Under the pieces are notes generated by a model. The model had not been told where the DNA came from and did no database searches. It worked only from the letters and a program-made list of their open reading frames with translations. From positions 1-59,977 of the IMG/VR virus record IMGVR_UViG_3300047281_000067: a DNA stretch of 59,977 nt; one strand, given 5' to 3'. The number at the start of each line of letters is the position of its first letter. Position 1 is the stretch's first letter. Both the position numbers and the translations under genes were made by a program. This stretch comes from a virus (lineage: Duplodnaviria; Caudoviricetes). Positions 19,832 to 42,093 of the stretch are shown here, piece by piece.

Positions 19832-19892
19832 TAGGATCCGTTCAGCAAACTTAAAAAATTCAACTTGTAATTGAAAAATAAGGATCCTGTTA
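19832..19892 (+). ncRNA. Y-like RNA copy 1 with Thr(UGU) anticodon stem-loop
   Basis: aggatcc/ggatcct terminal helix + TTCAGCAA; ttcaa-CTTGTAA-ttgaa. Confidence 0.7.
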
Positions 19893-19897
19893 TATTC

Positions 19898-19972
19898 ACT
19901 CAGTTCGTCTATCGGTAAGGACGACAGCCTTTCAAGTTGTAAAGACGGGTTCGATTCCCGTACTGAGTACCA
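19898..19972 (+). tRNA. tRNA-Glu(UUC)
   Basis: cloverleaf, loop CTTTCAA, CCA. Confidence 0.92.
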
Positions 19973-19979
19973 ATCAAAC

Positions 19980-20054
19980 GCGCCATTAGTATAATGGATA
20001 ATATACGAGCCTACGAAGTTCGGGATGGTGGTTCGATTCCATCATGGCGCACCA
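19980..20054 (+). tRNA. tRNA-Arg(ACG)
   Basis: cloverleaf, loop CTACGAA, CCA. Confidence 0.9.
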
Positions 20055-20058
20055 GTTT

Positions 20059-20126
20059 TAGGATGCATCCTGCAAAATCAAATCAATTCAAAACTTTTAT
20101 CTTTGAAAAGAAACTGCATCCTGTTA
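20059..20126 (+). ncRNA. Y-like RNA copy 2 with Lys(UUU)-like stem-loop
   Basis: aggatgca/tgcatcct helix + CTGCAA; ttcaaa-aCTTTTATc-tttgaa. Confidence 0.65.
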
Positions 20127-20132
20127 TATAAT

Positions 20133-20206
20133 ATCCGCGTAGCACAAAAGTAGAGCGTCCGGCTGATAACCGGGAGACGAAGGAGCGTTACCTTCCGTGG
20201 ATACCA
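20133..20206 (+). tRNA. tRNA-Ile(GAU), atypical T loop
   Basis: loop CTGATAA; T loop AGCGTTA instead of TTCRANY; CCA. Confidence 0.75.
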
Positions 20207-20225
20207 ATCAATTAGACTACTTAGG

Positions 20226-20297
20226 TGTGGCCTTAGTGTAGCGGTAGCACCAGACACTGTGAATGTCTTAGTACGGGTTCGACCCCCGTAGGTCACC
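20226..20297 (+). tRNA. tRNA-His(GUG), no encoded CCA, embedded in an extended flanking stem
   Basis: loop CTGTGAA; flanks gactacttagg / cctaagtagtt pair. Confidence 0.85.
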
Positions 20298-20319
20298 CCT
20301 AAGTAGTTTGAAAAATAAA

Positions 20320-20395
20320 GCCCCGGTGATGGAATGGTATACATGCTTGTCTTAGAAACAAGATCCTAGGAGTTCGAGTCTCCTCTGGGGCACCA
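20320..20395 (+). tRNA. tRNA-Leu(UAG) with short variable loop
   Basis: loop CTTAGAA, 76 nt, CCA. Confidence 0.85.
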
Positions 20396-20404
20396 TCATT
20401 AATT

Positions 20405-20478
20405 GCTCTTATAGGTAAATGGAATACTGACACTTTGGTATAGTGTAGTTGGAAGTTCGATTCTTCCTAAGAGCACCA
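20405..20478 (+). tRNA. tRNA-Thr(GGU)
   Basis: loop TTGGTAT, CCA. Confidence 0.88.
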
Positions 20479-20487
20479 AGATAAGTA

Positions 20488-20552
20488 GTGACTATAGTTT
20501 AAGCGAACAAGTTTAAATGTACTAGGTGCAGGTGTCAAGCCCTGCTAGTTGC
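20488..20552 (+). pseudogene. degenerate tRNA-like element
   Basis: 7 bp acceptor gtgacta/tagttgc and T-like stem gcagg/cctgc; no clear anticodon arm or CCA. Confidence 0.4.
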
Positions 20553-20559
20553 GAACATT

Positions 20560-20634
20560 GGATGTATAGCACAGCGGTAGTGCATTCGCTTCATACGCGA
20601 CAGGTCAGTAGTTCAAATCTACTTACATCCACCA
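20560..20634 (+). tRNA. tRNA-CAU (Met or Ile2)
   Basis: loop TTCATAC, CCA. Confidence 0.87.
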
Positions 20635-20641
20635 AACATAT

Positions 20642-20715
20642 GCGACCATAGTTAAATGGTAGAATTAGACTTTGCCAAAGTCTGGACACGGGTTCGATTC
20701 CCGTTGGTCGCTCCA
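20642..20715 (+). tRNA. tRNA-Gly(GCC)
   Basis: loop TTGCCAA, U73, CCA. Confidence 0.92.
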
Positions 20716-20723
20716 ACTTATAA

Positions 20724-20797
20724 CTCCGATTGGTGAAATGGAATCACTCTTGGTTTGGGACCAAGGAGCGCAAGTTCGATTCTTGCATCGGAGACCA
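20724..20797 (+). tRNA. tRNA-Pro(UGG)
   Basis: loop TTTGGGA, CCA. Confidence 0.9.
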
Positions 20798-20808
20798 AGT
20801 TTTAAAAT

Positions 20809-20886
20809 GCCCCTGTGGACAAATTGGCAAAGTCGCTTCTCTCAAAAGGAAGAGTTCTCTCGGTTCAAGTCCGAGCAGGGGTACCA
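20809..20886 (+). tRNA. tRNA-Leu(CAA) with short variable loop
   Basis: loop CTCAAAA, 78 nt, CCA. Confidence 0.85.
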
Positions 20887-20891
20887 AGTTT

Positions 20892-21011
20892 CCCGTCTTA
20901 GTGTAGTGGTTAGCACACGTATAAAGGTCATCCTGTCAAGGATGCAGTCAGCAATATACAACATTCCATTCTAAGGACGAAACGGTGGTTCGAATCCATC
21001 AGACGGGGCCA
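20892..21011 (+). ncRNA. tRNA body whose anticodon arm is replaced by a circularly permuted Y-like module
   Basis: acceptor cccgtct/agacggg+GCCA, normal D and T arms; insert catcct-gtca-aggatg-cagTCAGCAA at 20929-20954. Confidence 0.7.
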
Positions 21012-21079
21012 ATTACGGTAGTCGGAGTCATGACCCTTTGCGTTTTCATGAGATGCAAAGCGAGCTACCACCAACAAAT

Positions 21080-21171
21080 GGAGAGTAATGCAGCGGGGAT
21101 GGTCCTGCGACTGGCCTTGAAAACCAGGTTCTCAGAAATGGGATGGGGTTCGACTCCTCTGCTCTCCGCCA
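21080..21171 (+). tRNA. tRNA-Ser(UGA) with 8/4 acceptor/T-stem fold
   Basis: ggagagta/tgctctcc 8 bp, gggg/cctc 4 bp T stem, long variable arm, G73, CCA. Confidence 0.75.
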
Positions 21172-21573
21172 AAATATCCTTAAGTTAAGCGGGGCTGTAT
21201 ACACCCTTGCCAATGTTAGTAACGTACTATGCGATGAGTACCTTAAGGGCCAAGTTATGTCATAGTGTAATGAGAATGCACGGGAGGCCCACATAAGTCT
21301 TTTTAAGTAGAGCGGTGGAATAACTTTCAGGTACGGTAAAAACCCGTAACGACAAACAAGTTTTGAGATAGACGTAGGAGTCGAGTCGCAAGTAGCGGTG
21401 CAGCAAGAGAAGCACGTGTTTAACGTGAAAGATGCAAGACCTCCTCCATACGAGACAAACTACTGAGTCCACTAACAAGGATAGGTAGCCTCTCAAAAAC
21501 CTACCACAAGAAGCATATCAAATTTGATTGATGCGTGAGATATTGATAAATAGATCATACAAAGGAAAATATC

Positions 21574-21876
21574 ATGACAACCCCAACCCCAACCCCAAAC
21601 TCAAACTCAAACCCAATGACAAAAACTACCACAATCACTTGGGGCTCGATAGCTGATCAGGAACATATTGGTATCGAACAAGCCAGGGATATAAAACTGA
21701 TAGAAATGTCAAAACTCGGCAAAACTGATGGCACCGCACTCAACATCAGCCCTGAATGTACACGCCGGTATTGGGCTGATTTGGCATCTGCTGAAGAATA
21801 TGCTACATTTATCAATGAAATCTCGCTATCCTTTAATATTGCACCTGCTTCGATTGTAATTGACGACATTGTATAA
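21574..21876 (+). CDS. hypothetical protein
   Basis: AAGGA RBS, 100 aa, low-complexity PT/NS N-terminus. Confidence 0.65.
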   Translation: MTTPTPTPNSNSNPMTKTTTITWGSIADQEHIGIEQARDIKLIEMSKLGKTDGTALNISPECTRRYWADLASAEEYATFINEISLSFNIAPASIVIDDIV

Positions 21877-21917
21877 CTCACTAGTTATATACATAGCATT
21901 AGATTGATAAAAAGTAA

Positions 21918-23351
21918 GTGGCAAATTTAATTTTATGGAACACATTAAATCACAATGTATTTTTAGTTAGACCAGTCGGTGCCCATCAAATTGCACAATG
22001 GTTGATAAAACACGGATACACGGTAAAGGTAATTGATTTTTGTAGTTCTATTTCTACTGATGATTTAGTTGAGATAACACGAAAATTTATTGATAACTCT
22101 ACTATTGCGGTGGGAGTTAGTTCTACATTTTGGAACCTGTTTGACCCGATTACAATAACATCTAGTTCTAGATATCCACAGGGTAATAAATTCACAGCAA
22201 TCGATCCAGACTGGGTTAACTCAGGTAGACGAAAAATTGAAAGCTTATATCCTGAATTAAAATGGTTATTGGGAGGGGCATCCTCACAAGCTATCAGTAT
22301 GCATGATTGGATAAAATTTCACGGTCATGCTGAGGATTCAATATTAAAATTTTTAGATGAAAAAAGTGGCAAAAATATCGCTAGGACACCATTTACAATA
22401 CAATCCATGGAGTGGTCATACGGTGAGGGATTAGGTATACTCCCTCATGAAGTATTGGGTATTGAACTTGGTCGCGGATGTCAATTTAAATGTGGATTTT
22501 GTAGATATCCTCTATTGGGTAAAAAGAAAAATTCTTATTTACGAAATTTTAACTTAGTCAAGCACGAATTAATCCAGAATTATGAAAAATTTGGTGTTAC
22601 ACGCTATTCATATTTAGACGATACAGTGAATGAAAGCTCTGAGAAAATAGAAATTATGGCTGATATCGCGCAGTCACTCCCGTTTAAATTAGAATGGGTA
22701 GGGTATGGTAGATTAGATTTAATTGGTTCAAATCGTCCATCGATACAAACTCTTAAAGATTCGGGGCTTCGTAGTATGTTTTTTGGTATAGAGACATTCC
22801 ACCCAACCGCAAGTAAAGCAATTGGAAAAGCTTGGAATGGTAAACACGGTAAAGAATTTTTGCTCGAACTCAAGGAAATATGGGGTAAAGAAATCAACTT
22901 TCATACTAACTTCATAGTTGGGCTCCCGGGCGAATCAGAAATTGATATAGATAATACAATTCAATGGTGTATTGATAATGATATCCCATCATGGAAGTTT
23001 GGCGCATTAAATATTTCAATTAGACAAGATTTACTGTTTAAGAGTGTATTTGATGAAAACTACGCAGAGTATGGGTATAAATTCACCAATCCATTGGATG
23101 ATTCTTATTGGGAAAATGAATACTGGAATGCTCAGACAGCAGTGGATAAGCAACTATCTGTTTCTCGTCAAAATAAGAATAGTCGCCCATCAGATTTCGC
23201 TTTAGCGAGTCTCGCTGGTCTTGGTTATTCAATAGATGAACTCATTAATACACCTCAGCACTCACTGCCATACGGTGATATGTTTAATAAGCGACAATCA
23301 CACATAGACCAATACGTTCATTATCAAAAAAATATTGCTAATGCGTACTAA
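21918..23351 (+). CDS. B12-binding radical SAM protein (class B-like)
   Basis: ELGRGCQFKCGFC CxxxCxxC, FGIET, FIVGLPGE; N-terminal Rossmann-like domain. Confidence 0.88.
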   Translation: MANLILWNTLNHNVFLVRPVGAHQIAQWLIKHGYTVKVIDFCSSISTDDLVEITRKFIDNSTIAVGVSSTFWNLFDPITITSSSRYPQGNKFTAIDPDWVNSGRRKIESLYPELKWLLGGASSQAISMHDWIKFHGHAEDSILKFLDEKSGKNIARTPFTIQSMEWSYGEGLGILPHEVLGIELGRGCQFKCGFCRYPLLGKKKNSYLRNFNLVKHELIQNYEKFGVTRYSYLDDTVNESSEKIEIMADIAQSLPFKLEWVGYGRLDLIGSNRPSIQTLKDSGLRSMFFGIETFHPTASKAIGKAWNGKHGKEFLLELKEIWGKEINFHTNFIVGLPGESEIDIDNTIQWCIDNDIPSWKFGALNISIRQDLLFKSVFDENYAEYGYKFTNPLDDSYWENEYWNAQTAVDKQLSVSRQNKNSRPSDFALASLAGLGYSIDELINTPQHSLPYGDMFNKRQSHIDQYVHYQKNIANAY

Positions 23352-23379
23352 GTCCTAGACAATTGAAAAAGTTAATAAC

Positions 23380-23454
23380 GGGTCTTTGGTGCAACGGATA
23401 GCATACGAGTCTTCGAAACTCATGACGCAAGTTCGATTCTTGCAGGACCCACCA
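23380..23454 (+). tRNA. tRNA-Arg(UCG)
   Basis: loop CTTCGAA, CCA. Confidence 0.9.
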
Positions 23455-23497
23455 AAACAATAGTTAAATACATATAACATAACCGCAGGAGAAAATC

Positions 23498-24058: not shown

Positions 24059-24121
24059 ATTTCAATCATATTTACAAATGATAAATAACTATAGCAGCAA
24101 ATAACAACGCTGCTACCAATC

Positions 24122-24196
24122 GCCCGATTGGCTCAGGGGTAGAGCAACCGCCTTGTAAGCGGTAGGTCGTCTGTTCGAATCAGACATTGGGCACCA
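24122..24196 (+). tRNA. tRNA-Thr(UGU)
   Basis: loop CTTGTAA, CCA. Confidence 0.93.
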
Positions 24197-24203
24197 AATT
24201 TAT

Positions 24204-24278
24204 TCCCTAATAGCTCAGTGGTAGAGTAGTTGACTGTTAATCAATTGGTCCGTGGTTCGAGCCCACGTTGGGGAGCCA
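24204..24278 (+). tRNA. tRNA-Asn(GUU)
   Basis: loop CTGTTAA, GCCA. Confidence 0.95.
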
Positions 24279-24321
24279 AATATCTTAGTCAGCAATCGAA
24301 TATTATACACATAATACTATA

Positions 24322-25101
24322 ATGGATTCCGAATACACTATCAAAGAACTGTCTTACTTAAAAGCGAATCGATTATTGCCGCAAGTTCATAATACCCCCA
24401 GCCGGGTAGAAAAATTTTCGGGATATGATTCAGCTGGGTTATTTTCTGATAATTTACAAAAGCAAGATGCTTTGTGGAGATATAGGACCAAAGAAGTTAC
24501 TTATGTATTAAACGATCAATCATATCGTGCCCCGGAATGGAATTCTATTGATTGGAAAAATTCAGCGGTGATATTAGGTTGCTCTAATGTATTTGGGGTT
24601 GGATTAGCAGAAGATGAAACTATCAGTTATCAGTTATCATTATTGCTGAATCGGCCGGTTATCAATTTAGGTGTTGGTAGCTCCGGGATGTCTTTTGCAA
24701 TGCAAAATTCAGTTTTACTTAATAAAAACTTTCCTACTCCATGGGCTGTTATCAACATATGGTCGGATCCATTTCGCATTCATGAATTCATTGACAACAG
24801 ACTTATTTCACATTATACTGCTATGAGTTCTATATCAGGGAATTCTAACTTTAGTAAAAGTTGGGGTTCCTCAGAAATAAATCCAGAAATGTACAGTTAT
24901 TTTGCGTGTAAGGCTACTGAAGCAATTTGGTCATCAAAAACTAAATACTTGTCATACTCACATTGGGCTCCCCTAGACAGTAGTTCAATTAAAAGACTGC
25001 CCTTTATCCCCGGAGATTTGGCCCGAGATTTGGCTCACCCAGGATCAAAAATGGCTGTTGCGGTTGCAGAAGTCTTAGCTACAGCCCTAACAAAGACTTG
25101 A
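24322..25101 (+). CDS. SGNH-hydrolase-like protein
   Basis: LGCSNVFGVG, INLGVGSSG, C-terminal ARDLAHPG (DxxHP). Confidence 0.65.
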   Translation: MDSEYTIKELSYLKANRLLPQVHNTPSRVEKFSGYDSAGLFSDNLQKQDALWRYRTKEVTYVLNDQSYRAPEWNSIDWKNSAVILGCSNVFGVGLAEDETISYQLSLLLNRPVINLGVGSSGMSFAMQNSVLLNKNFPTPWAVINIWSDPFRIHEFIDNRLISHYTAMSSISGNSNFSKSWGSSEINPEMYSYFACKATEAIWSSKTKYLSYSHWAPLDSSSIKRLPFIPGDLARDLAHPGSKMAVAVAEVLATALTKT

Positions 25102-25455
25102 CATTAAATCGTTTCTTTGTTATAATAGATACAAGAAACAAAATTCTGGCGTTCGTATAATGGATAATACAGGGGATTTCTACTCCCTAAATAGCAGTTC
25201 GATTCTGTTACGCCGGACCAAATTAAAACACATTGTCCTAGGCTGTGACCTAGTCCATCAGAAGTCCAAAGAGACAGAAGCAGTGTGTTTTAATTTGGTT
25301 CTGTTGTTTAAATACAACGAGAAAAGAGTTGACATTAAAGCACAATGGTGCTATAATAGATACTTAGATTGATAGAAGACTTCTTTCAACAGGCTCTTAA
25401 AAGTTTGAAGAAAGTTAAAAAAGAAGTTGACAATTAATCAAAACGGTGTTATAAT
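25098..25455 (+). promoter_or_regulatory. three sigma70 promoters (-35 at 25098, 25329, 25427) with boxA-like elements downstream
   Basis: TTGACA-17-TATAAT three times; gctcttaaaa (~25393) and gttcattaaaaa (~25494). Confidence 0.8.
25146..25220 (+). tRNA. tRNA-Arg(UCU)
   Basis: loop TTTCTAC, CCA overlapping a conserved hairpin. Confidence 0.85.
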
Positions 25456-25950: not shown

Positions 25951-25955
25951 AATAT

Positions 25956-26257: not shown

Positions 26258-26259
26258 AG

Positions 26260-27412: not shown

Positions 27413-27480
27413 AGTTAAGTTGTTATAGTGAGTCGCTATGCGATAAACTTTAAGTAGAGATTATAACAACTCATTAGTTT

Positions 27481-27539
27481 TAGGATGCGTTCAGCAAATA
27501 AAAAAATTCAACTTTTAATTGAAAAATAAGCATCCTGTT
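27481..27539 (+). ncRNA. Y-like RNA copy 3 with Lys(UUU) anticodon stem-loop
   Basis: aggatgc/gcatcct helix + GTTCAGCAA; ttcaa-CTTTTAA-ttgaa. Confidence 0.72.
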
Positions 27540-27546
27540 GTATTAA

Positions 27547-28801: not shown

Positions 28802-29402
28802 TATTAAAACACACTAGTTCTTAGGGTTGTTCCGAAGATAATTATCTCCAATGGAGTCCTAGTATGTTTTAATATGGTAAATGTAGGCACCAACCTACTG
28901 CTAGGGTACGTCCCCGGTTTAATCTTTCTGAGCGATAAAGTAGCCGCTGTAAGCAATACACCTTCTCCGCACGAAATGGATGGTTACCATGGAAGGCGAA
29001 CGACTGAAAAAGAGAAAAAGCGAAAGAAAGTCAGAGATTGGTACTGACACCATATTGAAGTACATTGTGGAGAGCACTGTGTAGACTGAGAAGGTTTGAT
29101 TCCGACTCACTACATCACTCGGTATCCTGCGGCCGCAACAGTGTATTTCAATATGGTAATAACCAACAAGTTTTGTAAGTGTTAGCAAGAGAAAGTCACG
29201 CTATGTACTATTCTTCGAAGGTGGTACAGAAGTAAAAGGTCAAGTGGGTTCAACTCCCAGCCGCGCTCTTAAAGTGAAAGCGGCGCAGATTGGTTGCCGG
29301 TGCTGGACAAAGTATTCCAAGTAACATACCGCTCCCGTCCGGACTAGTTAAATCGGGAGAAGCGTTGAGATACAAGCGGCTCAACTACTTACAGATTCAA
29401 TT

Positions 29403-29463
29403 TAGGATGCCTACTGCAAACATAAAACTTTCACTGTAAATGAAAAAAATGTGCATCCTGTTA
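29403..29463 (+). ncRNA. Y-like RNA copy 4 with Tyr(GUA) anticodon stem-loop
   Basis: aggatgc/gcatcct helix + CTGCAA; tttca-CTGTAAA-tgaaa. Confidence 0.72.
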
Positions 29464-29475
29464 TATTATCGGTTT

Positions 29476-29596
29476 TAGGATACATTCAGCAACACTTAAT
29501 ATCAAGCAGTATGTCAGTGGTTCGAATCCACTCCGAGGCGAAAGCTAAGGTAGCTCAGTTGGTAGAGCAACAGCCAATAAAAAGCGTATCCTGTTA
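29476..29596 (+). ncRNA. Y-like RNA copy 5, YrlA-type permuted tRNA mimic
   Basis: aggatac/gtatcct helix + TTCAGCAA; T arm agtggTTCGAATccact, then GAAA-capped acceptor-like stem, then D arm tagctcagttggtagagc. Confidence 0.8.
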
Positions 29597-29601
29597 TATA
29601 A

Positions 29602-30045: not shown

Positions 30046-30120
30046 CGGGGTATAATTCAATGGTTAGAATAGTCGGCTTTTAACCGATCTATCACGGTTC
30101 GAGTCCGTGTGCCCCGACCA
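30046..30120 (+). tRNA. tRNA-Lys(UUU)
   Basis: loop CTTTTAA, CCA. Confidence 0.92.
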
Positions 30121-30491: not shown

Positions 30492-31835
30492 ATGCCTAAT
30501 AAAAATATATTTTGTTCTAGTCCATGGTTACATATTAAAATTGACTACGATGGAAGATTTGTTCCGTGTCGATGGCAGTCAACAATCAATCCTGAAGTTG
30601 ATTCTAGCAATTTACGCTCAATGAGTATCTTAGAATTTTACAATTCATCTAGAATGAACCAGTTTAGAAGCAATCTTTTAGAAGGTTCTGACCTAACTGA
30701 ATGTTCTTCATGTAAGTATGAAGATTCATTCGAAAAGGTAAGTGGTAGATTAAAACAGTTATATCGCAGTGGTATTGCTATCGAATCATTTGATCGAGAC
30801 TTTTCAAAAAGTCATCACTATGAATTGTTTAACTACAGTACTGATAACAATGGTCAAACTAATGCCTACCCGTACGATTTTCAAATTAATTTGAGTAATG
30901 TGTGTAATAGTGCTTGTATTATGTGTGCTCCGCATTTTAGTACTCGTCTAGTTCAAGATTATCAGAAACTATCAAAATTCGCCCCGGTATTATTTAAACA
31001 ACCAAAAAAAATTAATTGTTGGGCAGATGATCCTTCACTCGTCGAAAAATTTATACGTGATATTAAAGAATTACCGTACATTGATTATATACATTTGTTG
31101 GGCGGTGAAACTCTCTTATTAGAAAGTTTTTACACAATATGTGATGCATTGATTGAATCCGGACTATCAAAAACTATTTATTTAGGTACTACTACTAATT
31201 TAACAGTGTATTCACCTAAAATTGAAAATATTGTTACTAAGTTCTCTAAATTTCACTTAGGATTGAGTATTGAATCAGTTAATCCGTTGAATGATTATAT
31301 TAGATATCCGTCTAAGATCACTGGCATATTAGAAAATTTATCAAAATATTTATCCCTAAGAGATAAATATCCGGACAAACTACACATGTCATTGCGCATC
31401 ACTCCTAATATTTTTAGTATTTTTTATATTGATGAAGTTATACAATATATGTGTGATAATGACATAACTGGCGAAAGTTGTAATATATTGATTCGTCCTG
31501 AATGTTTGCGAATGGAATTAATGCCGGAAAATATACGATTGCTCACTATTGAAAAACTTAACGCAGTGATTAACAAAAATGAATTGTCTCGGGCCAAAGT
31601 AGTAAATATTCGAGACAATAATCTAACGCGAGAAGTGATTTCCACTATTGCGTTCACATACGTTGATTTCTTAGAAAATCTAGTTCTACCGTCGGACGGT
31701 GAAAAACAACGACATGATCTAGTAACATTCCTTCATGGATTTGAGTCTATAAGAGGAAATTCAATATTAGACTATGCCCCGGAGTATGAAACATTTCTAA
31801 AAGCATATGGTTATACGCGCCCACTTGACATTTAA
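30492..31835 (+). CDS. radical SAM protein with N-terminal twitch/SPASM-like domain
   Basis: FCSSPW..PC, ECSSC, CNSACIMC, LGGETLL, YIRYP. Confidence 0.88.
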   Translation: MPNKNIFCSSPWLHIKIDYDGRFVPCRWQSTINPEVDSSNLRSMSILEFYNSSRMNQFRSNLLEGSDLTECSSCKYEDSFEKVSGRLKQLYRSGIAIESFDRDFSKSHHYELFNYSTDNNGQTNAYPYDFQINLSNVCNSACIMCAPHFSTRLVQDYQKLSKFAPVLFKQPKKINCWADDPSLVEKFIRDIKELPYIDYIHLLGGETLLLESFYTICDALIESGLSKTIYLGTTTNLTVYSPKIENIVTKFSKFHLGLSIESVNPLNDYIRYPSKITGILENLSKYLSLRDKYPDKLHMSLRITPNIFSIFYIDEVIQYMCDNDITGESCNILIRPECLRMELMPENIRLLTIEKLNAVINKNELSRAKVVNIRDNNLTREVISTIAFTYVDFLENLVLPSDGEKQRHDLVTFLHGFESIRGNSILDYAPEYETFLKAYGYTRPLDI

Positions 31836-33631: not shown

Positions 33632-33752
33632 GCCATAGTTGAATACATTGTTTAGCTCAGTCGGTAGAGCGACCACTATTATACTAGTTACGTGGGGATA
33701 AATTGTCACAGAGCGCGGGTTCGAGTCCCGCAATAGTGTATTCAACTATGGT
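33632..33752 (+). ncRNA. tRNA-like RNA whose acceptor stem is the ~20 bp conserved hairpin
   Basis: D arm tagctcagtcggtagagc and T arm gcgggTTCGAGTcccgc stacked on gccatagttgaatacattgtt/aatagtgtattcaactatggt. Confidence 0.65.
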
Positions 33753-36951: not shown

Positions 36952-36958
36952 AGTATTA

Positions 36959-37032: not shown

Positions 37033-37036
37033 ATTT

Positions 37037-37112: not shown

Positions 37113-37140
37113 TATATTTTTAACCATGGAGTTCACACAA

Positions 37141-37302: not shown

Positions 37303-37303
37303 A

Positions 37304-38067: not shown

Positions 38068-38070
38068 AAT

Positions 38071-39012
38071 ATGAAATATATACTAACTCTCTTACTATCA
38101 TTTATTATAAGCGCACACGCAGCACAGTCCCAGTCTCCGCTTGAAATTATCGTTCCATTACCACCGGGGGGTCCCACTGACTCTCTCGCAAGAGCAGTCC
38201 AACTGTATCTGACTAAATCACTCTCACGCAATGTGATAGTGGTTAATAAGCCAGGTGCTGATGGCCGTATCGCCGGCCGATATGCTGTAAGTAAACCATC
38301 TGATGGATCAAGTTTGGTAATTATTGGCACTGGTCCATTTGTATACAACAAAGTACTGTATTCAAATCTCGGATATGACTATTCAGAGTTTGATATGGTT
38401 TTGCCAATTGTCCGAACTCCAGTGGGAATAATGGTATCTGCTGACAGTAAAATTAGTACATTGTCTGAGTTAGTAAATTACTCTACTAAGAATCAATTGA
38501 ACTGCGGAGTGAGCAATTCCGGAGGTAAATTAATCGCGGGCTATTTGAAAGTAAAATTAGAAATGTCGTCGTCAGTGCTAATTGTTCCGTATACCGGTTC
38601 TGGCCCAGCAATCAATGATCTATTGGGCGGACATATAAACTGTGTAGTAGATGCGGTCTCGTCATATAAATCATATCACTTGGCTAAAAAAATCAAAATC
38701 ATCGCATTGACTGGCAATGATCAAATAGTTGAACTAGGTCATATTCCGCTAGTGAAAGAATCACTCCCTGAATTCGTGATATTTAATTGGTTCGGGGTAG
38801 GTATTCTGAAAGGTACTCCTGATGACATTAAACATCAAATCTTGTCTTCTCTGAAACATATTAATAACGATGCTGACTTTTTAAAGTCAGTAGCAGCCAC
38901 TGGACTTGACGCAACACGAAGTTCAGACACCCCTACTAAATTATTGGATACAGAATATAAAAAAATATCAGATATTGCTAAAGTATTGGCTATTCCCAAG
39001 ACAGTAGACTAG
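38071..39012 (+). CDS. tripartite tricarboxylate transporter substrate-binding protein (Bug/TctC)
   Basis: signal peptide; IIVPLPPGGPTDSLAR, VNKPGADG, VPYTGSGPAINDLLGG. Confidence 0.88.
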   Translation: MKYILTLLLSFIISAHAAQSQSPLEIIVPLPPGGPTDSLARAVQLYLTKSLSRNVIVVNKPGADGRIAGRYAVSKPSDGSSLVIIGTGPFVYNKVLYSNLGYDYSEFDMVLPIVRTPVGIMVSADSKISTLSELVNYSTKNQLNCGVSNSGGKLIAGYLKVKLEMSSSVLIVPYTGSGPAINDLLGGHINCVVDAVSSYKSYHLAKKIKIIALTGNDQIVELGHIPLVKESLPEFVIFNWFGVGILKGTPDDIKHQILSSLKHINNDADFLKSVAATGLDATRSSDTPTKLLDTEYKKISDIAKVLAIPKTVD

Positions 39013-39015
39013 TAT

Positions 39016-40155: not shown

Positions 40156-40175
40156 ATAATAATTAAAGGAAATAT

Positions 40176-40625
40176 GTGTCAGTTACATTACAAAACTTAG
40201 AAAATGCTTTAGCTGGTGAATCAATTGCTCATGTAAAATATCGTTATTTTGCACGCATCGCCCGCGAAGAAGGCTTCGAAGAAATTGCCCAACATTTTGA
40301 GCATACAGCAGATCAAGAGATACTCCATGCCTGGGGTCATCTAGACTTGCTTATCGGTAAACCTTCTACTAAGGAATGCTTAGAAAAAGCAATCGCAGGC
40401 GAGACATATGAGTTTACTGCAATGTATCCTAGCTATGTATATGCTGCTCAACAAGAACAGAACACTGAAGCTCTCTCTGAATTTCAAGGACAGATCGTTG
40501 AATCAAAAGAACATGCTGCTCAGTTCAAAGCTGTATTGGCAAAAGCAGAAAAACGTTTTGCTGCTCTGACTAAAGTAGAGAAGCGCCACGCTGAAGCATA
40601 TACACAAGTACTGGGGACAATGTAA
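40176..40625 (+). CDS. rubrerythrin (ferritin-like domain)
   Basis: ALAGESIAH.KY, EILHA, ETYEFT.MYP, ESKEHA, EKRHA. Confidence 0.9.
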   Translation: MSVTLQNLENALAGESIAHVKYRYFARIAREEGFEEIAQHFEHTADQEILHAWGHLDLLIGKPSTKECLEKAIAGETYEFTAMYPSYVYAAQQEQNTEALSEFQGQIVESKEHAAQFKAVLAKAEKRFAALTKVEKRHAEAYTQVLGTM

Positions 40626-40753
40626 TGGATCATGTTTGTATTGTATGTGGTCATGTCCACGATGAAGAACTAGAAGGCGCATGGGATACGCTCCCTGATG
40701 ATTATCTATGCCCGGAATGTGGCGTGGGTAAAGAAGATTACGAAACATTGTAA
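40625..40753 (+). CDS. rubredoxin
   Basis: MDHVCIVCGHVHDE...LPDDYLCPECGVGKEDY; below the ORF track cutoff; TAATG coupling to rubrerythrin. Confidence 0.9.
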   Translation: MDHVCIVCGHVHDEELEGAWDTLPDDYLCPECGVGKEDYETL

Positions 40754-40768
40754 TTTACCCAAAATGTG

Positions 40769-40797
40769 TTTACAACAACACGAAAGTAAGTTATAAT
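40769..40797 (+). promoter_or_regulatory. sigma70 promoter directly upstream of Y-like copy 6
   Basis: TTTACA-17-TATAAT. Confidence 0.7.
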
Positions 40798-40807
40798 AGT
40801 CACTTAC

Positions 40808-41055
40808 TAGGATGAGTTCAGCATTTAAAATACTAACGTAATTACATAGAAAGCGGTCGTAGGACAGTAGCAATACTTCTAGGCAACTAGACGCTCAAGG
40901 AATGAATGACAGAATGGAAAGACATCCTATGTTGCTAGTAGCAGACACAATTACTAGATAGTCAACATGAATGTTGATAGGGTCGCAGTAACTGAACCAA
41001 CATACAGGGGACAGTGCGACCAGAAAATAAAATAACGGTTACTATCATCCTGTTA
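40808..41055 (+). ncRNA. Y-like RNA copy 6 (long, ~250 nt)
   Basis: aggatga/tcatcct helix + GTTCAGCA, CCTGTTA end; internal GCAA/GAAA tetraloop hairpins. Confidence 0.65.
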
Positions 41056-41059
41056 AAAT

Positions 41060-41857
41060 ATGCAAGTTCTATTACAAGACATTAGTACATACGAAACCAG
41101 AACTATCAGTCAAGCATGTATGCTATCTGATATAAAGGTACATCGTACAAGTTTAGGAATGTTACAAACACTCTTTGACTTCAAGACTGAATTACTACGA
41201 GGGGATTTAATGCCCGTTGGTAGTGTAGAGTTTGTAAGAGAATGTTTCTCTATCATGGATATAGAATCACCCGGGTGGTCCTCATATCCCGACGAATTAG
41301 AAGAATTCTTACACAGAAAACTTAAAGTACGCAGTGCACCTTATATTCGCATAATGTATACTTCTCAAGCAATAGAGACACCCGTGTTCATCAAACCAGC
41401 ATATCAAGTAAAATTGTTCAACGGGTTTGTATTTTATCCTACTAAAAAGCGGGAAGATTATGATGAACATGATCAAGAGCAGTGGGATATCGTAATGTCA
41501 GCGGACAATAAGACATTATTGTGTATCAGCGATGTAGTAGACTTTCATAGTGAATGGCGATATTATATCGATGACAATAAGATCATTGGGTCAGCAAGAT
41601 ATGACGATGGTCCTGATTCAGCATTAGCACCAGAGATAGATGTAGTCAATCAAATGATTGAGGCTATGCCGATAAATCATCCTTACACATTGGATGTAGG
41701 GAGACTGTCAACTGGTGGCACCGCTTTGGTGGAAATCAACGATGCTTGGGCAATCGGGTTGTACGGTAAAGCATTAACCCCAAGAGTTTATTTAGACTTT
41801 TTGGGTAAACGATGGAAATCAATTGTTGAAAAACACTTGACAAGTAATCAAAACTAA
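41060..41857 (+). CDS. ATP-grasp domain protein (DUF4343/R2K-like)
   Basis: PVGSVEF, YPDEL..FLHR, VFIKP, SEWRYYI, TLDVG, LVEIND.WAIGLY. Confidence 0.8.
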   Translation: MQVLLQDISTYETRTISQACMLSDIKVHRTSLGMLQTLFDFKTELLRGDLMPVGSVEFVRECFSIMDIESPGWSSYPDELEEFLHRKLKVRSAPYIRIMYTSQAIETPVFIKPAYQVKLFNGFVFYPTKKREDYDEHDQEQWDIVMSADNKTLLCISDVVDFHSEWRYYIDDNKIIGSARYDDGPDSALAPEIDVVNQMIEAMPINHPYTLDVGRLSTGGTALVEINDAWAIGLYGKALTPRVYLDFLGKRWKSIVEKHLTSNQN

Positions 41858-41865
41858 GCTATAAT
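41837..41865 (+). promoter_or_regulatory. sigma70 promoter for Y-like copies 7-8 and the Ro60-like gene
   Basis: TTGACA-17-TATAAT. Confidence 0.85.
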
Positions 41866-41886
41866 TAACGCTTAGACACTGAGATT

Positions 41887-42022
41887 TAGGATAGGTGCAG
41901 CAATCAAATTAATCAACTTGGATTGCTACTTTTAACCTGGACATCAAACTCCAGACAAAGTAGATAGAGTGGTTTCGACAGTTCCCCTCGATAAAAGAAA
42001 AAAGTAGATAACTATCCTGTTA
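41887..42022 (+). ncRNA. Y-like RNA copy 7
   Basis: aggatag/ctatcct helix + GTGCAGCAA, CCTGTTA end; internal GGTTTCGAC T-loop-like motif. Confidence 0.68.
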
Positions 42023-42026
42023 AATT

Positions 42027-42093
42027 TAGGTTAACTTCAGCAACACAAACACCTGGCTGTCTGCTAGGACACTAAACTAGTATTAACCTGTTA
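42027..42093 (+). ncRNA. Y-like RNA copy 8 with Asp(GUC) anticodon stem-loop
   Basis: aggttaa/ttaacct helix (compensatory changes) + TTCAGCAA; cctgg-CTGTCTG-ctagg. Confidence 0.72.

What the first reader, a model, noticed from the sequence alone, without database searches (positions are those of the whole stretch)
19859..42068. Five Y-like RNAs display isolated anticodon stem-loops (Thr, Lys, Lys, Tyr, Asp): possible decoys for anticodon nucleases
Seen: the short copies each hold one hairpin between A-rich linkers, with anticodon-arm geometry (5 bp stem, 7 nt loop starting CU): CTTGTAA (UGU, 19864), CTTTTAT (UUU, 20094, with an A-C closing mismatch), CTTTTAA (UUU, 27512), CTGTAAA (GUA, 29434), CTGTCTG (GUC, 42057). 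Three loops are identical to those of bona fide tRNAs in this window. Copies 1 and 3 differ inside the hairpin only at the middle anticodon base. Established: anti-phage and toxin tRNases target such loops (PrrC and PARIS AriB cut tRNA-Lys; colicin E5-type enzymes cut Tyr/His/Asn/Asp). Inference: protein-stabilised anticodon decoys or sensors for tRNA-targeting defences, or bait for modification enzymes or synthetases.
Basis: partly seen in the sequence, partly recalled or inferred. Interest (0 to 1): 0.9.

Follow-up and report, generated by a model that had tools for sequence, protein, structure and literature searches.

The report
Phage small RNAs displaying anticodon-arm mimics
A large uncultured freshwater phage encodes, inside its tRNA gene array and beside a Ro-like protein gene, a family of about 60-base RNAs, many of which display a look-alike of a tRNA anticodon loop (mostly lysine or threonine type), possibly as bait for host enzymes that attack tRNAs.

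Summary
All five hairpins are at the stated coordinates. Three are canonical anticodon-arm look-alikes: Thr-UGU at 19864, Lys-UUU at 27512 and Tyr-GUA at 29434. Two are marginal: 20094 has an A·C closure and U38, and 42057 has U37 and a loop that can close to 5 nt.

They belong to a large, uncatalogued phage RNA family with a covarying 7-bp closing stem, a single-stranded CAGCAA motif and a CCUG-UU end. I found 475 copies in 200 related loci plus the window.

Of 191 distinct short copies, 132 hold a perfect 5-bp/7-nt frame and 80 obey C32-U33-NNN-R37. Shuffles give 9.4% and 0.24%. Natural tRNA spacers give 61 and 8 of 157.

Hairpin stems have drifted to 20% GC while the loops stay tRNA-like. 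Lys-UUU (25 of 97) and Thr-UGU (20 of 97) are about 5 to 10 times over-represented. These are the two main targets of the PARIS nuclease AriB.

The RNAs abut tRNAs at fixed spacing. 66 of 71 homologues of the neighbouring gene have a copy just upstream. That DUF2828/DUF7788 protein folds like Ro60.

Anticodon mimicry on a Ro-like RNP is well supported. The decoy function is plausible but untested.

Side lead: the short RNAs resemble Dictyostelium Class I RNAs.

The parts
19828..19897 (+). Short RNA 1. It fills the whole spacer between tRNA-Gln (ends at 19827) and tRNA-Glu (starts at 19898). Core AGG...CCTG is 19833-19889. Hairpin is 19859-19875, with loop CTTGTAA (Thr-UGU type) at 19864-19870.
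   Evidence: CM R1 scores 76.6 bits. The MFE contains the closing stem and a 5-bp/7-nt hairpin. RF01414 scores 29.3 bits.
20055..20132 (+). Short RNA 2, between tRNA-Arg (ends at 20054) and the tRNA at 20133. Core is 20060-20123. Hairpin is 20087-20107, with loop CTTTTAT closed by an A·C mismatch. This is a degenerate Lys-UUU type.
   Evidence: CM R1 scores only 32.1 bits. The MFE gives 6 bp and a 9-nt loop.
27478..27546 (+). Short RNA 3, ending 9 nt before tRNA-Trp (27547). Core is 27482-27537. Hairpin is 27507-27523, with loop CTTTTAA (Lys-UUU type) at 27512-27518.
   Evidence: CM R1 scores 86.9 bits. RF01414 scores 33.4 bits. The MFE prefers an alternative pairing of the U-run with the A-rich linker.
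29400..29468 (+). Short RNA 4. Core is 29404-29460. Hairpin is 29429-29445, with loop CTGTAAA (Tyr-GUA type) at 29434-29440. It lies in tandem with the long copy that follows.
   Evidence: CM R1 scores 56.2 bits. RF01414 scores 29.2 bits.
42024..42098 (+). Short RNA 5, in the leader of the Ro-like gene. Core is 42028-42090 with closing stem GGTTAAC/TTAACC. Hairpin is 42052-42068, with loop CTGTCTG. This is a doubtful 'Asp' mimic and a possible 5'-UTR operator.
   Evidence: Positional homologues carry varied loops.
29477..29601 (+). Long family member. It has the same closing stem and CAGCAA motif, but the module is a tRNA-like T-arm, a capped acceptor-like stem and a D-arm. It ends 8 nt before tRNA-Val (29602).
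   Evidence: Rfam YrlA scores 27.6 bits over 29509-29571, below the gathering score of 69.
41888..42019 (+). Long family member (132 nt) between the R2K ATP-grasp gene and short RNA 5. The nature of its module is unknown.
   Evidence: No Rfam match.
40809..41052 (+). Long family member (244 nt; 5' motif has 3 mismatches) directly upstream of the R2K ATP-grasp gene.
   Evidence: No Rfam match.
20888..21012 (+). Circularly permuted member. It is a tRNA-shaped RNA with an acceptor stem, a D-arm, a T-arm and a GCCA end. Its anticodon arm is replaced by the family's stem and CAGCAA module, closed by a small loop.
   Evidence: Two further permuted examples occur in relatives.
42109..43524 (+). Gene for a 471-aa Ro-like protein (Pfam DUF2828 + DUF7788 + weak VWA_2; PHROG 850 'RNA-binding protein'). 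It is the presumed protein partner.
   Evidence: AlphaFold2 model has pLDDT 92.2. The top 13 Foldseek PDB hits are all Ro60/TROVE chains. An RNA copy lies within 400 nt upstream in 66 of 71 homologous loci.
19344..19372 (+). Consensus sigma-70-type promoter (TTGACA-17-TACAAT with TG) upstream of the first tRNA. It is a likely promoter of the array transcript that would carry RNAs 1 and 2.
   Evidence: This is a pattern match only.

Best explanation
The five elements are small non-coding RNAs of an undescribed phage family.

Architecture. Each RNA has a conserved platform and a variable module.
- The platform is a 7-bp closing helix (AGGNNNN/N'N'N'N'CCU), a single-stranded N(3-5)-CAGCAA motif after the 5' strand, and a G-UU-rich 3' tail.
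- I infer that the platform is the binding site of the neighbouring Ro60-fold protein (DUF2828/DUF7788).
- In the short RNAs the module is a weak AU-rich 5-bp hairpin between A-rich linkers. Its 7-nt loop is kept in anticodon-loop form (C/U32, U33, three 'anticodon' bases, A37, A38).
- In long relatives the module is the tRNA elbow.

Biogenesis (inferred from the spacing). The RNAs are transcribed within the tRNA array. tRNA processing releases them: RNase P at the next tRNA sets the 3' end, and 3'-end processing of the previous tRNA sets the 5' end.

Function (inferred). The RNP presents an isolated anticodon loop, above all Lys-UUU and Thr-UGU, to a protein that reads anticodon loops. The most likely targets are host tRNA-cleaving defence nucleases of the PrrC or PARIS-AriB kind. 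These would be competitively occupied, or perhaps sensed, while the phage's own tRNAs keep translation going.

Confidence. About 0.75 that these are Ro-like-associated RNAs under selection to display anticodon-loop mimics. About 0.3 that the purpose is a nuclease decoy. The figure given is for 'bait for an anticodon-loop-binding protein'.
For: Family and structure:
- 475 of 773 matches to the 5' motif have the exact complementary 3' partner within 400 nt. A reversed control gives 3. There are 39 different stem tetramers.
- On a CM-derived alignment of 135 distinct sequences, 98.2% of cells pair, against 74.2% in shuffles. The covariation score is 0.551 against 0.118, with 0 of 500 shuffles as high. 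Slid controls reach at most 0.065. Both helices have changes on both sides.

Loop rules:
- 132 of 191 distinct short copies have a perfect 5+7+5 frame and 80 of 191 have CU-NNN-R. Shuffles give 9.4% and 0.24%. Natural spacers give 61 and 8 of 157.
- Loop base frequencies track real phage tRNAs. U33 is 113 of 132, A37 is 102 of 132 and A38 is 101 of 132.
- A34 is only 5 of 132, although the inner region is 76% A+T.
- 80 of 97 canonical loops are identical to a loop of some phage tRNA. Yet hairpin stems are 20% GC against 60% in 2,647 tRNA anticodon stems. The loop, not the stem, is conserved.
- All three near-complete relatives (192, 338 and 356 kb) carry a CUUUUAA RNA on three different compensating stems.

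Repertoire:
- Lys-UUU is 25 of 97 against 2.7% of phage tRNAs. Thr-UGU is 20 of 97 against 4.3%.
- At cluster level each is 6 of 29 (p = 1e-4 and 1e-3).
- AriB cuts tRNA-Lys(UUU), Thr(UGU), Asn(GUU) and Thr(CGU) (PMC12409363).
- Isolated anticodon stem-loops can be substrates of at least one defence nuclease, Cas13b (PMC13692257 passage).

Processing context:
- 123 of 234 short copies start 4-8 nt (mode 5) after a tRNA.
- 119 of 234 have a tRNA starting within 30 nt of their end; for 112 of these the gap is 4-12 nt (mode 8-9).

Protein link:
- 66 of 71 homologous genes have a copy within 400 nt upstream on the same strand. Other neighbours are not conserved: R2K in 5 of 59 and the downstream ORF in 1 of 79.
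- The protein model matches Ro60 over its whole length (E = 1.4e-9, TM 0.63).
Against: - No expression, end-mapping, binding or cleavage data exist. The one metatranscriptome contig that spans RNA 1 has the same depth as contigs over coding DNA.
- The hairpins are thermodynamically weak, and alternative folds compete.
- Only 29 of 75 sequence clusters show a canonical loop. Anticodon display is therefore one module among several.
- 19 of 157 ordinary spacers also show U33/R37 frames.
- The elements are related and AT-rich. The Lys/Thr skew is partly lineage expansion and partly composition. The p-values treat sequences as independent.
- AriB cuts in the stem between positions 40 and 41, next to U36-A-A-U-C. 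Only 13 of 50 Lys/Thr/Asn-type mimics have U39-C40, and the window's copies have U39-U40.
- RtcB is absent from 5 of 5 related records, and an Rnl2-type ligase is present in 1 of 5. The usual Ro-repair context is therefore missing.
- The host and its defences are unknown.
Confidence: 0.42

Rival explanations
1. Adaptor or tether. As canonical Y RNAs tether Ro60 to PNPase, the anticodon-like loop recruits a host anticodon-binding enzyme to the Ro-like protein. Candidates are lysyl- or threonyl-tRNA synthetase and the t6A, i6A or wobble-uridine modification enzymes. The purpose would be to hijack, inhibit or relocate that enzyme, or the RNA is itself modified. No nuclease is involved.
For: - Y RNAs act as tethers, and a phage Ro60 with its Yrl RNAs binds host PNPase (PMC12135203, abstract and passages; PMC4201824 passages).
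- 81 of 97 canonical loops end in U36-A37-A38 (59) or A36-A37-A38 (22). By my recall, not by any search, these are the contexts read by t6A and i6A enzymes.
- The tRNA-elbow modules of the long copies and the permuted tRNA-shaped copy fit a general theme of presenting a tRNA part to a tRNA-binding protein.
Against: - The U36/A36 bias may simply reflect AT-richness.
- It offers no reason why Lys and Thr should dominate.
- No partner enzyme gene is conserved beside the RNAs.
Confidence: 0.2
2. No anticodon-specific function. Only the closing stem and CAGCAA platform matter. The inner hairpin is a structural spacer or stabiliser, and its tRNA-like loop is inherited from tRNA-derived ancestors in the array or is just a stable U-turn loop.
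For: - Many family members carry other modules. 46 of 75 clusters lack a canonical loop.
- The triplet differs widely, with about 20 different triplets among the 97 canonical loops (about 30 among all 132 perfect frames), and flanking context is shuffled.
- An earlier scan note on canonical YrlA RNAs reached this view for their anticodon-arm look-alike (e1-2660811, unchecked).
Against: - Stems have drifted to 20% GC with compensatory changes, while loops remain identical to real tRNA loops in 80 of 97 cases.
- A34 is avoided in an A-rich RNA.
- The same CUUUUAA loop sits on at least 6 different stems and occurs in all 3 near-complete relatives.
- This pattern indicates purifying selection on the loop.
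Confidence: 0.15
3. U-turn loops used for RNA-RNA pairing. The anticodon-like loop is a fast-pairing seed, as in antisense-RNA loops, that kisses a complementary sequence in an mRNA, a tRNA or another copy.
For: - The loops have the U-turn signature.
- In copy 3 the U-run can pair with its own A-rich linker.
Against: - No conserved complementary target was found or searched for systematically.
- Loop identity follows tRNA anticodon usage (wobble U/G/C, A37, A38), not the needs of a pairing partner.
Confidence: 0.06
4. Cis-acting DNA or RNA signals of the array (promoters, processing sites or terminators) rather than stable RNAs. The 3' end TGTTATAT resembles an extended -10 box, and the hairpin's 3' arm TTGAAA resembles a -35 box.
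For: The promoter scan hits copy 2 (TTGAAA-18-TATAAT, 11 of 12) and copy 4 (9 of 12).
Against: - Only 2 of 5 copies are hit.
- Promoter-like sites are not enriched: 27 found against 28.5 expected.
- A start about 7 nt after the -10 box would fall inside the next tRNA, which begins 8-9 nt after CCTG.
- The phage's clear promoters are perfect TTGACA-17-TATAAT sites elsewhere.
- Covariation in both helices, strand specificity and linkage to the Ro-like gene point to an RNA.
Confidence: 0.04
5. For copy 5 only: it is an operator in the leader of the Ro-like mRNA. The protein would bind it to autoregulate its own translation. It would not be a trans-acting Asp mimic.
For: - It ends 19 nt before the start codon, with the ribosome-binding site directly after CCTG.
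- A short copy lies 19-34 nt upstream of the gene in the window and in 14 of the related loci.
- The loops of these positional homologues are not conserved.
Against: It could be both. It follows a long copy in tandem and could be processed out like the others.
Confidence: 0.35

Closest known systems
Bacterial and phage Ro60 (Rsr/TROVE) with Y RNAs, especially YrlA (Rfam RF02553; Chen et al. 2014, PMC4201824; Thermus phage phiLo Ro60-Yrl, PMC12135203)
   Same: - Small RNAs are encoded next to, and on the same strand as, a ring-plus-vWA protein of Ro60 fold.
- The build is modular: a conserved closing stem plus a variable module.
- The modules mimic tRNA. The long copy at 29477-29601 has YrlA-like T and D arms.
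- They occur in phages.
   Different: - Pfam calls the protein DUF2828/DUF7788, not TROVE.
- The RNA lacks the Rsr-binding GNCGAA motif and has AGG...CAGCAA...CCUG instead.
- No copy reaches the YrlA gathering score.
- The short copies display only an anticodon arm, whereas YrlA lacks one.
- The genes sit inside tRNA arrays at fixed tRNA-processing distances.
- No RtcB was found in 5 of 5 related records.
Dictyostelid Class I RNAs (Rfam RF01414; Kjellin et al. 2021, PMC7919456)
   Same: - About 55-65 nt and A/U-rich.
- A 6-7 bp stem joins the ends, conserved in structure but not in sequence.
- A conserved single-stranded motif follows the 5' strand. The Rfam consensus is CCUUACAGCAA. The phage RNAs have N(2-3)-(A)CAGCAA.
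- The RNA starts with A-G at the stem and ends in CUG(U).
- The inner part is variable.
- The Rfam model aligns end to end with 4 of the 5 short copies.
   Different: - Scores of 18.5-33.4 bits are below the gathering score of 41.5.
- Class I RNAs are eukaryotic, individually transcribed from DUSE promoters and reported as unique to Dictyostelia.
- Their known direct partner is the RRM protein Rnp1A.
- No anticodon-like module has been described for them.
Phage tRNAs that neutralise tRNA-cleaving defences (T5 tRNA-Lys/Thr/Asn against PARIS AriB, PMC12409363 and PMC11464382; phage tRNAs against retron effectors, PMC11555353; anticodon-loop variants, PMC10264068)
   Same: - Phage-encoded RNAs in tRNA arrays.
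- The same tRNA identities stand out: Lys-UUU, Thr-UGU, and some Asn and Tyr.
- The presumed purpose is to survive host anticodon-directed nucleases.
   Different: - Those are complete, decodable tRNAs that replace the cleaved host tRNA.
- These are 17-nt anticodon arms on a protein-binding scaffold. They cannot be charged or decode, so they could only compete, sequester or signal.
Synthetic anticodon stem-loop minihelices used as enzyme substrates (for example Cas13b cleavage of isolated His and Val ASLs, PMC13692257)
   Same: A 5-bp stem with a 7-nt anticodon loop, detached from the tRNA body, can still be recognised by a defence nuclease.
   Different: Those are laboratory constructs with native GC-rich stems. 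Here the stems are AU-rich and the arm is embedded in a natural RNA.

Membership tests
tRNA anticodon arm (geometry only) | 5-bp stem closing a 7-nt loop | tested here: met
   - Met cleanly in copies 1, 3 and 4.
- Copy 2 has 6 bp plus an A·C mismatch.
- Copy 5 has a G·U pair and can close to a 5-nt loop.
- Family: 132 of 191 have a perfect frame. 107 of 135 CM-aligned loops are 7 nt.
tRNA anticodon arm (geometry only) | Pyrimidine 32, U33 and purine 37 (A38 is common) | tested here: met
   - Window: Y32 and U33 in 5 of 5, R37 in 4 of 5 (copy 5 has U37), A38 in 3 of 5.
- Family: C32 86, U33 113, A37 102 and A38 101 of 132.
- Real phage tRNAs: C32 63% (the rest U), U33 99%, A37 91%, A38 76%.
tRNA (Rfam RF00005 / ARAGORN) | Cloverleaf with acceptor, D and T arms | tested here: not met
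   None of the five short copies is called by ARAGORN or by Rfam tRNA. They have no acceptor, D or T arm.
YrlA / bacterial Y RNA (RF02553) | Score at or above the Rfam gathering threshold (69 bits) | tested here: not met
   Only the tRNA-like part of the long copy (29509-29571) matches, at 27.6 bits. The short copy within the stretch searched at permissive thresholds (copy 4) gave no YrlA match, and no short copy reached a gathering score.
YrlA / bacterial Y RNA (RF02553) | Rsr-binding motif GNCGAAN0-1G near the 5' end (Chen 2014 passage) | tested here: not met
   The conserved 5' region is UUAGGNNNN-N(3-5)-CAGCAA in all copies. No GNCGAA motif is present.
YrlA / bacterial Y RNA (RF02553) | Encoded within a few kb of, and on the same strand as, the Ro60-type gene | tested here: met
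   66 of 71 loci have a copy within 400 nt upstream of the Ro-like gene on the same strand. Many further copies lie in the tRNA array, up to 22 kb away in the window.
Ro60 / TROVE protein | Pfam TROVE domain match | tested here: not met
   - Pfam gives DUF2828 (1e-27), DUF7788 (8e-47) and VWA_2 (0.0013), with no TROVE hit.
- A profile search against PDB sequences reaches TROVE/Ro60 only at E = 0.037-0.2, in the vWA part.
Ro60 / TROVE protein | Helical-repeat ring followed by a vWA domain (fold) | tested here: met
   The model has pLDDT 92.2 and pTM 0.91. The first 13 Foldseek PDB hits are Ro60/TROVE chains aligned over 508-570 alignment columns. The best is 2i91 at E = 1.4e-9 with TM 0.63/0.58.
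Dictyostelid Class I RNA (RF01414) | Score at or above the Rfam gathering threshold (41.5 bits) | tested here: not met
   - Window: 33.4, 29.3, 29.2 and 18.5 bits, all aligned over model positions 1-56.
- 10 hits of 20.8-30.8 bits in 5 of 5 related records. 0 of 14 control genomes hit at E <= 0.01.
Dictyostelid Class I RNA (RF01414) | Short terminal stem conserved in structure only, an 11-nt motif next to its 5' strand, a start at (A)AG and an end at CUGU (Kjellin 2021 passages) | tested here: inconclusive
   - The stem with covariation is met.
- The ends UUAGG...CCUGUU agree.
- The motif shares the CAGCAA or ACAGCAA core but not all 11 positions.
- No Dictyostelium sequence could be searched with the phage model.
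Anti-defence decoy of an anticodon nuclease | Binds or is cleaved by the nuclease and relieves its toxicity or phage exclusion | not testable with these tools
   The only evidence is the match between the repertoire (Lys-UUU, Thr-UGU) and AriB/PrrC targets.

The most novel reading that the evidence does not exclude
The short RNAs and the dictyostelid Class I RNAs are one cross-kingdom RNA class.
- Its conserved platform is the closing stem, the (A)CAGCAA motif and the CUG(U) end. This platform is the docking site of Ro-fold DUF2828/DUF7788 proteins.
- Its variable region is a programmable display site.
- Phages have loaded that site with tRNA parts, chiefly Lys-UUU and Thr-UGU anticodon arms. 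This makes protein-held decoys against anticodon nucleases such as PARIS AriB or PrrC.

If true, the 20-year-old question of what Class I RNAs bind and do would gain a concrete candidate. DDB_G0281243 is an uncharacterised protein pulled down with Class I RNA DdR-21. It should be checked for this fold.
Probability: 0.15. Interest if true: 0.9.

Novelty: new variant of a known kind. Interest (0 to 1): 0.74.

Why it matters
tRNA-cleaving nucleases are now recognised as a major arm of bacterial immunity. The known phage answer is to carry replacement tRNAs.

A family of protein-scaffolded RNAs that display only the anticodon arm would be a second, cheaper strategy: occupying or sensing the nuclease rather than replacing its target. 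It would also give a handle for finding which tRNAs are under attack in uncultured hosts.

The finding also extends the Ro/Y-RNA idea in three ways:
- to a large protein family (6,114 clusters at 50% identity) that Pfam lists only as domains of unknown function;
- to a new RNA-binding platform;
- to a set of interchangeable tRNA-part modules.

It offers a testable link to the unexplained Class I RNAs of social amoebae as well.

Tried and rejected
- Promoter reading. Only copies 2 and 4 give promoter-like hits, with no enrichment. Rejected as a general explanation.
- RNA-repair cassette reading. RtcB is in 0 of 5 related records and an Rnl2-type ligase in 1 of 5. No ligase was seen among the 33 window ORFs scanned against Pfam, PHROGs or NCBIfam. 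The window is a fragment, so absence is not proven.
- Orthology by flanking tRNAs. The contexts are shuffled, so conservation of a given 'anticodon' at a fixed position could not be tested.
- Expression. One run search and one laying of contigs from 4 runs. A 266-nt contig of an RNA library spans 19787-20052 with 1 mismatch. Coding stretches are covered at similar depth, and contigs show neither ends nor strand. No verdict.
- Motif scan of 185,579 prokaryote genomes. Only 2 MAG contigs (L270, L271) hold complete elements. The rest look like chance matches of a 15-base pattern.
- Rfam gathering-threshold scan of 15 related loci. Its list was filled by tRNAs and showed only the best 150 of 334 matches, so it could not show Class I hits. 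I replaced it.
- ESM Atlas returned only viral DUF2828 clusters and gave no help on eukaryotic relatives.
- Conserved protein neighbours. R2K ATP-grasp is upstream in 5 of 59 loci and the 173-aa ORF is downstream in 1 of 79. They are not part of the system.
- Papers. Avesson 2011 has no PMC id, and Aspegren 2004 (PMC516072) is not held. The original Class I pull-down data could not be read, and supplements were not opened.
- AriB motif test. Phage tRNA-Lys(UUU) often has C39 (31 of 53), whereas 49 of 50 Lys/Thr/Asn mimics have U39. This is suggestive, but AU-rich stems explain it equally well, so I do not use it as evidence.
- Our own scan's notes. Nothing on this genome or on look-alike sequence.

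Full report
WHAT THE WINDOW IS

The window is a 59,977-base linear fragment of an uncultured virus record.
- It carries 40 tRNA genes by ARAGORN and 43 by Rfam, all on the + strand between 19.7 and 37.1 kb.
- It also carries ribonucleotide reductase, SAM synthetase, a cell-wall hydrolase, two radical-SAM enzymes and HNH and GIY-YIG endonucleases.
- Its nearest relatives are contigs from IMG/VR. Only distant matches exist in isolate phages, where the homologous protein is annotated 'RNA-binding protein' or 'putative Ro sixty-related protein'.

THE OBSERVATION

- Copies 1, 3 and 4 have clean 5-bp stems and the 7-nt loops CTTGTAA, CTTTTAA and CTGTAAA.
- Copy 2 has 6 bp, an A·C mismatch and the loop CTTTTAT.
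- Copy 5 has a G·U pair and the loop CTGTCTG. Its position 37 is U, and its positions 32 and 38 can pair.
- RNAfold keeps the closing stem in all five. It gives the anticodon-type hairpin as the MFE only for copies 1 and 4. Z-scores are modest, from -1.0 to -2.3.
- Only two loops equal a tRNA loop of this window: Thr-UGU at 24122 and Lys-UUU at 30046. I found no tRNA-Tyr here.

THE ELEMENT FAMILY

Each hairpin sits in a larger unit: (U)UUAGG-NNNN-N(3-5)-C(A/T)GCA(A/T) ... N'N'N'N'-CCTG-TT.... The window has nine units.
- Five are short.
- Three are long: 29477-29593, 41888-42019 and 40809-41052.
- One is circularly permuted inside a tRNA-shaped RNA, 20888-21012.

- In these 200 loci plus the window, 773 stretches match the 5' motif.
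- 475 of them have the exact complementary tetramer plus CCTG within 400 nt. A reversed control partner gives 3.
- 39 different tetramers occur.
- Lengths fall into classes: 234 are under 80 nt (191 distinct), 136 are 80-134 nt and 105 are longer.

I built a covariance model from 15 gap-free short copies, with the two helices given by me.
- It found 174 matches in the 100 sources searched, about half of the material.
- On the resulting alignment of 135 distinct rows, 98.2% of cells pair, against 74.2% in shuffles.
- 11 of 12 pairs change on both sides.
- The covariation score is 0.551 against 0.118, with 0 of 500 shuffles as high. Versions with partners slid by 1-3 columns reach at most 0.065.
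- Caveat: this alignment was fitted to the model.

IS THE INNER HAIRPIN ANTICODON-LIKE ACROSS THE FAMILY?

Results for the 191 distinct short copies:
- 132 contain a perfect 5+7+5 frame, 54 have four of five pairs and 5 have three.
- 97 have U33 plus R37, and 80 have C32-U33...R37.
- Mononucleotide shuffles give 899 and 23 of 9,550.
- As a natural control I used 157 distinct 45-95-nt spacers between same-strand tRNAs that hold no element. These give 61 perfect frames, 19 with U33/R37 and 8 with CU...R (Fisher p = 2e-8, 5e-15 and 1e-16). Some of these spacers may be diverged family members that my strict pattern missed.
- MFE folding of the inner part gives 103 seven-base loops among 194 hairpins and 113 five-pair stems.
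- The model-based alignment gives 107 seven-base loops of 135.

Loop composition tracks the phages' 2,647 real tRNAs:
- U33 is 86% against 99% in tRNAs.
- A37 is 77% against 91%.
- A38 is 77% against 76%.
- Wobble A is 4% against 3%, although the inner region is 76% A+T.

Further points:
- 80 of 97 canonical loops are identical to some phage tRNA loop. Only 9 of 97 whole arms are within two mismatches of a tRNA arm. Hairpin stems are 20% GC against 60% in tRNAs.
- So the loop is held while the stem drifts with compensation. For example, CTTTTAA sits on TTCAA/TTGAA, TTAGA/TCTAA, TTTGA/TCAAA, TTTCA/TGAAA, TTGAA/TTCAA and TGAGA/TCTTA.
- The display is not universal. At 85% identity the 191 copies form 75 clusters. 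44 clusters have a perfect frame and 29 have a U33/R37 loop.
- Other modules include 9-nt loops closed by A·C, A32 loops and a GTC-TAGC-GAC hairpin.

WHICH 'ANTICODONS'?

Counts among the 97 canonical loops, with the share of phage tRNAs in brackets:
- Lys-UUU 25 (2.7%)
- Thr-UGU 20 (4.3%)
- Ser-GGA 7 (0.5%)
- Tyr-GUA 7 (1.9%)
- Ser-UGA 6
- Asn-GUU, Cys-GCA and Arg-UCU 4 each
- 13 further triplets at 1-3 each

Other results on the repertoire:
- At cluster level Lys and Thr are 6 of 29 each (p = 1e-4 and 1e-3).
- 81 of 97 loops end in U36-A-A or A36-A-A.
- The three near-complete relatives (192, 338 and 356 kb; completeness 100, 97 and 96%) hold only 2-5 family members by my pattern and 8 model hits in all. 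Each has exactly one CUUUUAA RNA, on three different stems.
- One of these relatives has no tRNA-Lys(UUU) or tRNA-Thr(UGU) gene of its own.
- Flanking tRNAs are shuffled among relatives, so position-by-position orthology could not be used.
- The copy that lies 19-34 nt before the protein gene has varied loops in relatives. This undercuts the 'Asp' reading of copy 5 and suggests a leader or operator role for it.

HOW THE RNAs ARE PROBABLY MADE

- 123 of 234 short copies begin 4-8 nt (80 of them at 5 nt) after the 3' end of a same-strand tRNA.
- 119 of 234 have a same-strand tRNA beginning within 30 nt of their end; for 112 of these the gap is 4-12 nt (85 of them at 8-9 nt).
- The upstream spacer is N-UUUU and the tail is UU-N-W-W-U.
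- In the window, copy 1 fills the Gln-Glu spacer exactly, and copy 2 fills the spacer between tRNA-Arg and the next tRNA.
- This fits release by RNase P and tRNA 3'-end processing. That is an inference from the E. coli pathway in the abstract of PMC2190699, which I saw only in the listing.
- A consensus promoter lies at 19344-19372, ahead of the array.
- The promoter alternative for the elements themselves fails: only 2 of 5 copies are hit and there is no enrichment.

THE PROTEIN PARTNER

- The 471-aa product of 42109-43524 matches Pfam DUF2828, DUF7788 and, weakly, VWA_2.
- It matches PHROG 850 'RNA-binding protein' at 9e-142 and no NCBIfam model.
- It has 6,114 representative relatives at E <= 0.001 in a 1.84-billion-protein library.
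- An AlphaFold2 model built from 56 sequences has pLDDT 92.2 and pTM 0.91.
- Its first 13 Foldseek hits in the PDB are all Ro60/TROVE chains aligned over nearly the whole length. They include Xenopus, human, Deinococcus and Thermus-phage Ro60. The best has E = 1.4e-9 and TM 0.63. Isolated vWA domains follow from E = 9e-4.
- Sequence profiles see Ro60 only weakly, at E = 0.037-0.2.
- In 66 of the 71 homologous loci with at least 400 nt of upstream sequence, a family RNA ends within 400 nt upstream on the same strand.
- The window's other neighbours are not conserved: R2K in 5 of 59 and the downstream ORF in 1 of 79.
- Binding itself is inferred, not shown.

COMPARISON WITH WHAT IS KNOWN

Ro60/Y RNA:
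- Ro60 with Y RNAs, their tRNA mimicry and their presence in phages are established (PMC4201824 passages; PMC7824862 passages; PMC12135203 abstract and passages).
- This system works like that one but is not a member by the usual definitions. There is no TROVE hit. There is no GNCGAA Rsr motif. YrlA scores 27.6 bits against a threshold of 69, and only on the tRNA-like part of the long copy. RtcB is in 0 of 5 related records.

What I found in print:
- I found no paper describing RNAs that display an isolated anticodon arm on such a scaffold, and none linking DUF2828 to an RNA.
- These searches cover open-access text only. Supplements were not opened.

Defence nucleases:
- PARIS AriB cuts tRNA-Lys(UUU) and Thr(UGU) best, then Asn(GUU) and Thr(CGU). 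It cuts between positions 40 and 41, next to U36-A-A-U-C. T5 supplies resistant versions of these same tRNAs (PMC12409363).
- PrrC targets tRNA-Lys and Retron-Eco7 targets tRNA-Tyr (listing abstracts only).
- Activated Cas13b cleaves isolated anticodon stem-loops (PMC13692257 passage).
- The Lys/Thr skew therefore fits a decoy. But only 13 of 50 Lys/Thr/Asn-type mimics carry U39-C40, and the window's copies carry U39-U40.
It comes from no call.

A SIDE RESULT

Rfam's Dictyostelium Class I RNA model (RF01414) aligns end to end with four of the five short copies.
- Scores are 33.4, 29.3, 29.2 and 18.5 bits, against a threshold of 41.5.
- It gives 10 hits in 5 of 5 related records. It gives none in 14 control genomes at E <= 0.01.
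- The published hallmarks of Class I RNAs all have counterparts here (PMC7919456 passages). They are a length of 42-65 nt, a 6-bp terminal stem conserved only in structure, an 11-nt motif beside its 5' strand, a start at AAG and an end at CUGU.
- That paper reports the class as unique to Dictyostelia.
- The proteins pulled down with one Class I RNA were GuaB, NdkC, Rnp1A/CIBP and the uncharacterised DDB_G0281243 (preprint passages).
- I could not obtain that protein or search amoeba genomes, so this remains a lead.

VERDICT

This is a new variant of the Ro/Y-RNA theme, in which a distinct Ro-fold protein family is paired with a distinct RNA platform that carries interchangeable tRNA parts. In many short members that part is an anticodon-loop mimic dominated by Lys-UUU and Thr-UGU.
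- Shown: that the loop is under selection.
- Inferred from synteny and fold: that the RNP exists.
- The leading but untested reading: that it decoys anticodon nucleases.

Noticed in passing
window 19834-19889, 20061-20123, 27483-27537, 29405-29460; related records G006-G010: The short RNAs align over the full length of Rfam's Dictyostelium Class I RNA model at 18.5-33.4 bits, below the threshold of 41.5. They share its published hallmarks: terminal stem, (A)CAGCAA motif, A-G start and CUG(U) end. That class is reported as unique to social amoebae, and one of its pulled-down proteins (DDB_G0281243) is uncharacterised.
   Followed up: partly
window 20888-21012; also L078 near 8675 (+) and L139 near 5656 (-): Circularly permuted family members. 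The window and L078 hold a tRNA-shaped RNA with an acceptor stem, D- and T-arms and a CCA-type end, in which the anticodon arm is replaced by the stem and CAGCAA platform closed by a 3-4-nt loop. L139 holds a bare 5-bp acceptor-like stem with a GCCA end. This suggests the platform is an autonomous protein-binding domain.
   Followed up: partly
window 40809-41052 and 41888-42019: Two long family members (244 and 132 nt) flank the R2K ATP-grasp gene. Their inner modules match no Rfam family. Relatives have recurrent size classes of about 160 nt and 230-265 nt just upstream of the Ro-like gene.
   Followed up: no
window 33645-33740: ARAGORN calls a 96-nt tRNA of unknown identity with a four-base anticodon (tata). 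Rfam tRNA scores 40.1 bits there.
   Followed up: no
window 25098-25126, 25329-25357, 25427-25455: Three perfect TTGACA-17-TATAAT promoters with an upstream TG lie within 360 bases, around tRNA-Arg(TCT) at 25146-25220.
   Followed up: no
window 21918-23351 and 30492-31835: Two radical-SAM genes sit inside the tRNA array. One is a B12-binding-type methyltransferase-like enzyme, with all NCBIfam matches far below their cut-offs. The other is a twitch-domain radical-SAM protein (NF033640, 237.6 bits). They could be RNA- or peptide-modifying enzymes.
   Followed up: partly
L139 9381-9527 and 10841-11140; window 38071-39012: A related contig carries a Polynucleobacter-1 RNA (RF01718, 83 bits) and a permuted tmRNA. 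The window encodes a TctC-family solute receptor. Together with the freshwater RNA libraries that hold parts of the window, this hints at a freshwater betaproteobacterial host. That host link rests on my recollection of where these families are common.
   Followed up: no
window 27421-27470: A long inverted repeat (TTGTTATA...TATAACAA) lies between tRNA-Asn and short RNA 3. It occupies most of the one spacer where the short RNA does not abut an upstream tRNA.
   Followed up: no
tRNA genes of loci L008-L207: Among 53 distinct phage tRNA-Lys(UUU) genes, 31 have C at position 39 and 18 have U. The Lys/Thr/Asn mimics have U39 in 49 of 50. This may relate to evasion of stem-cutting nucleases such as AriB, or may just reflect GC-rich versus AU-rich stems.
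   Followed up: partly
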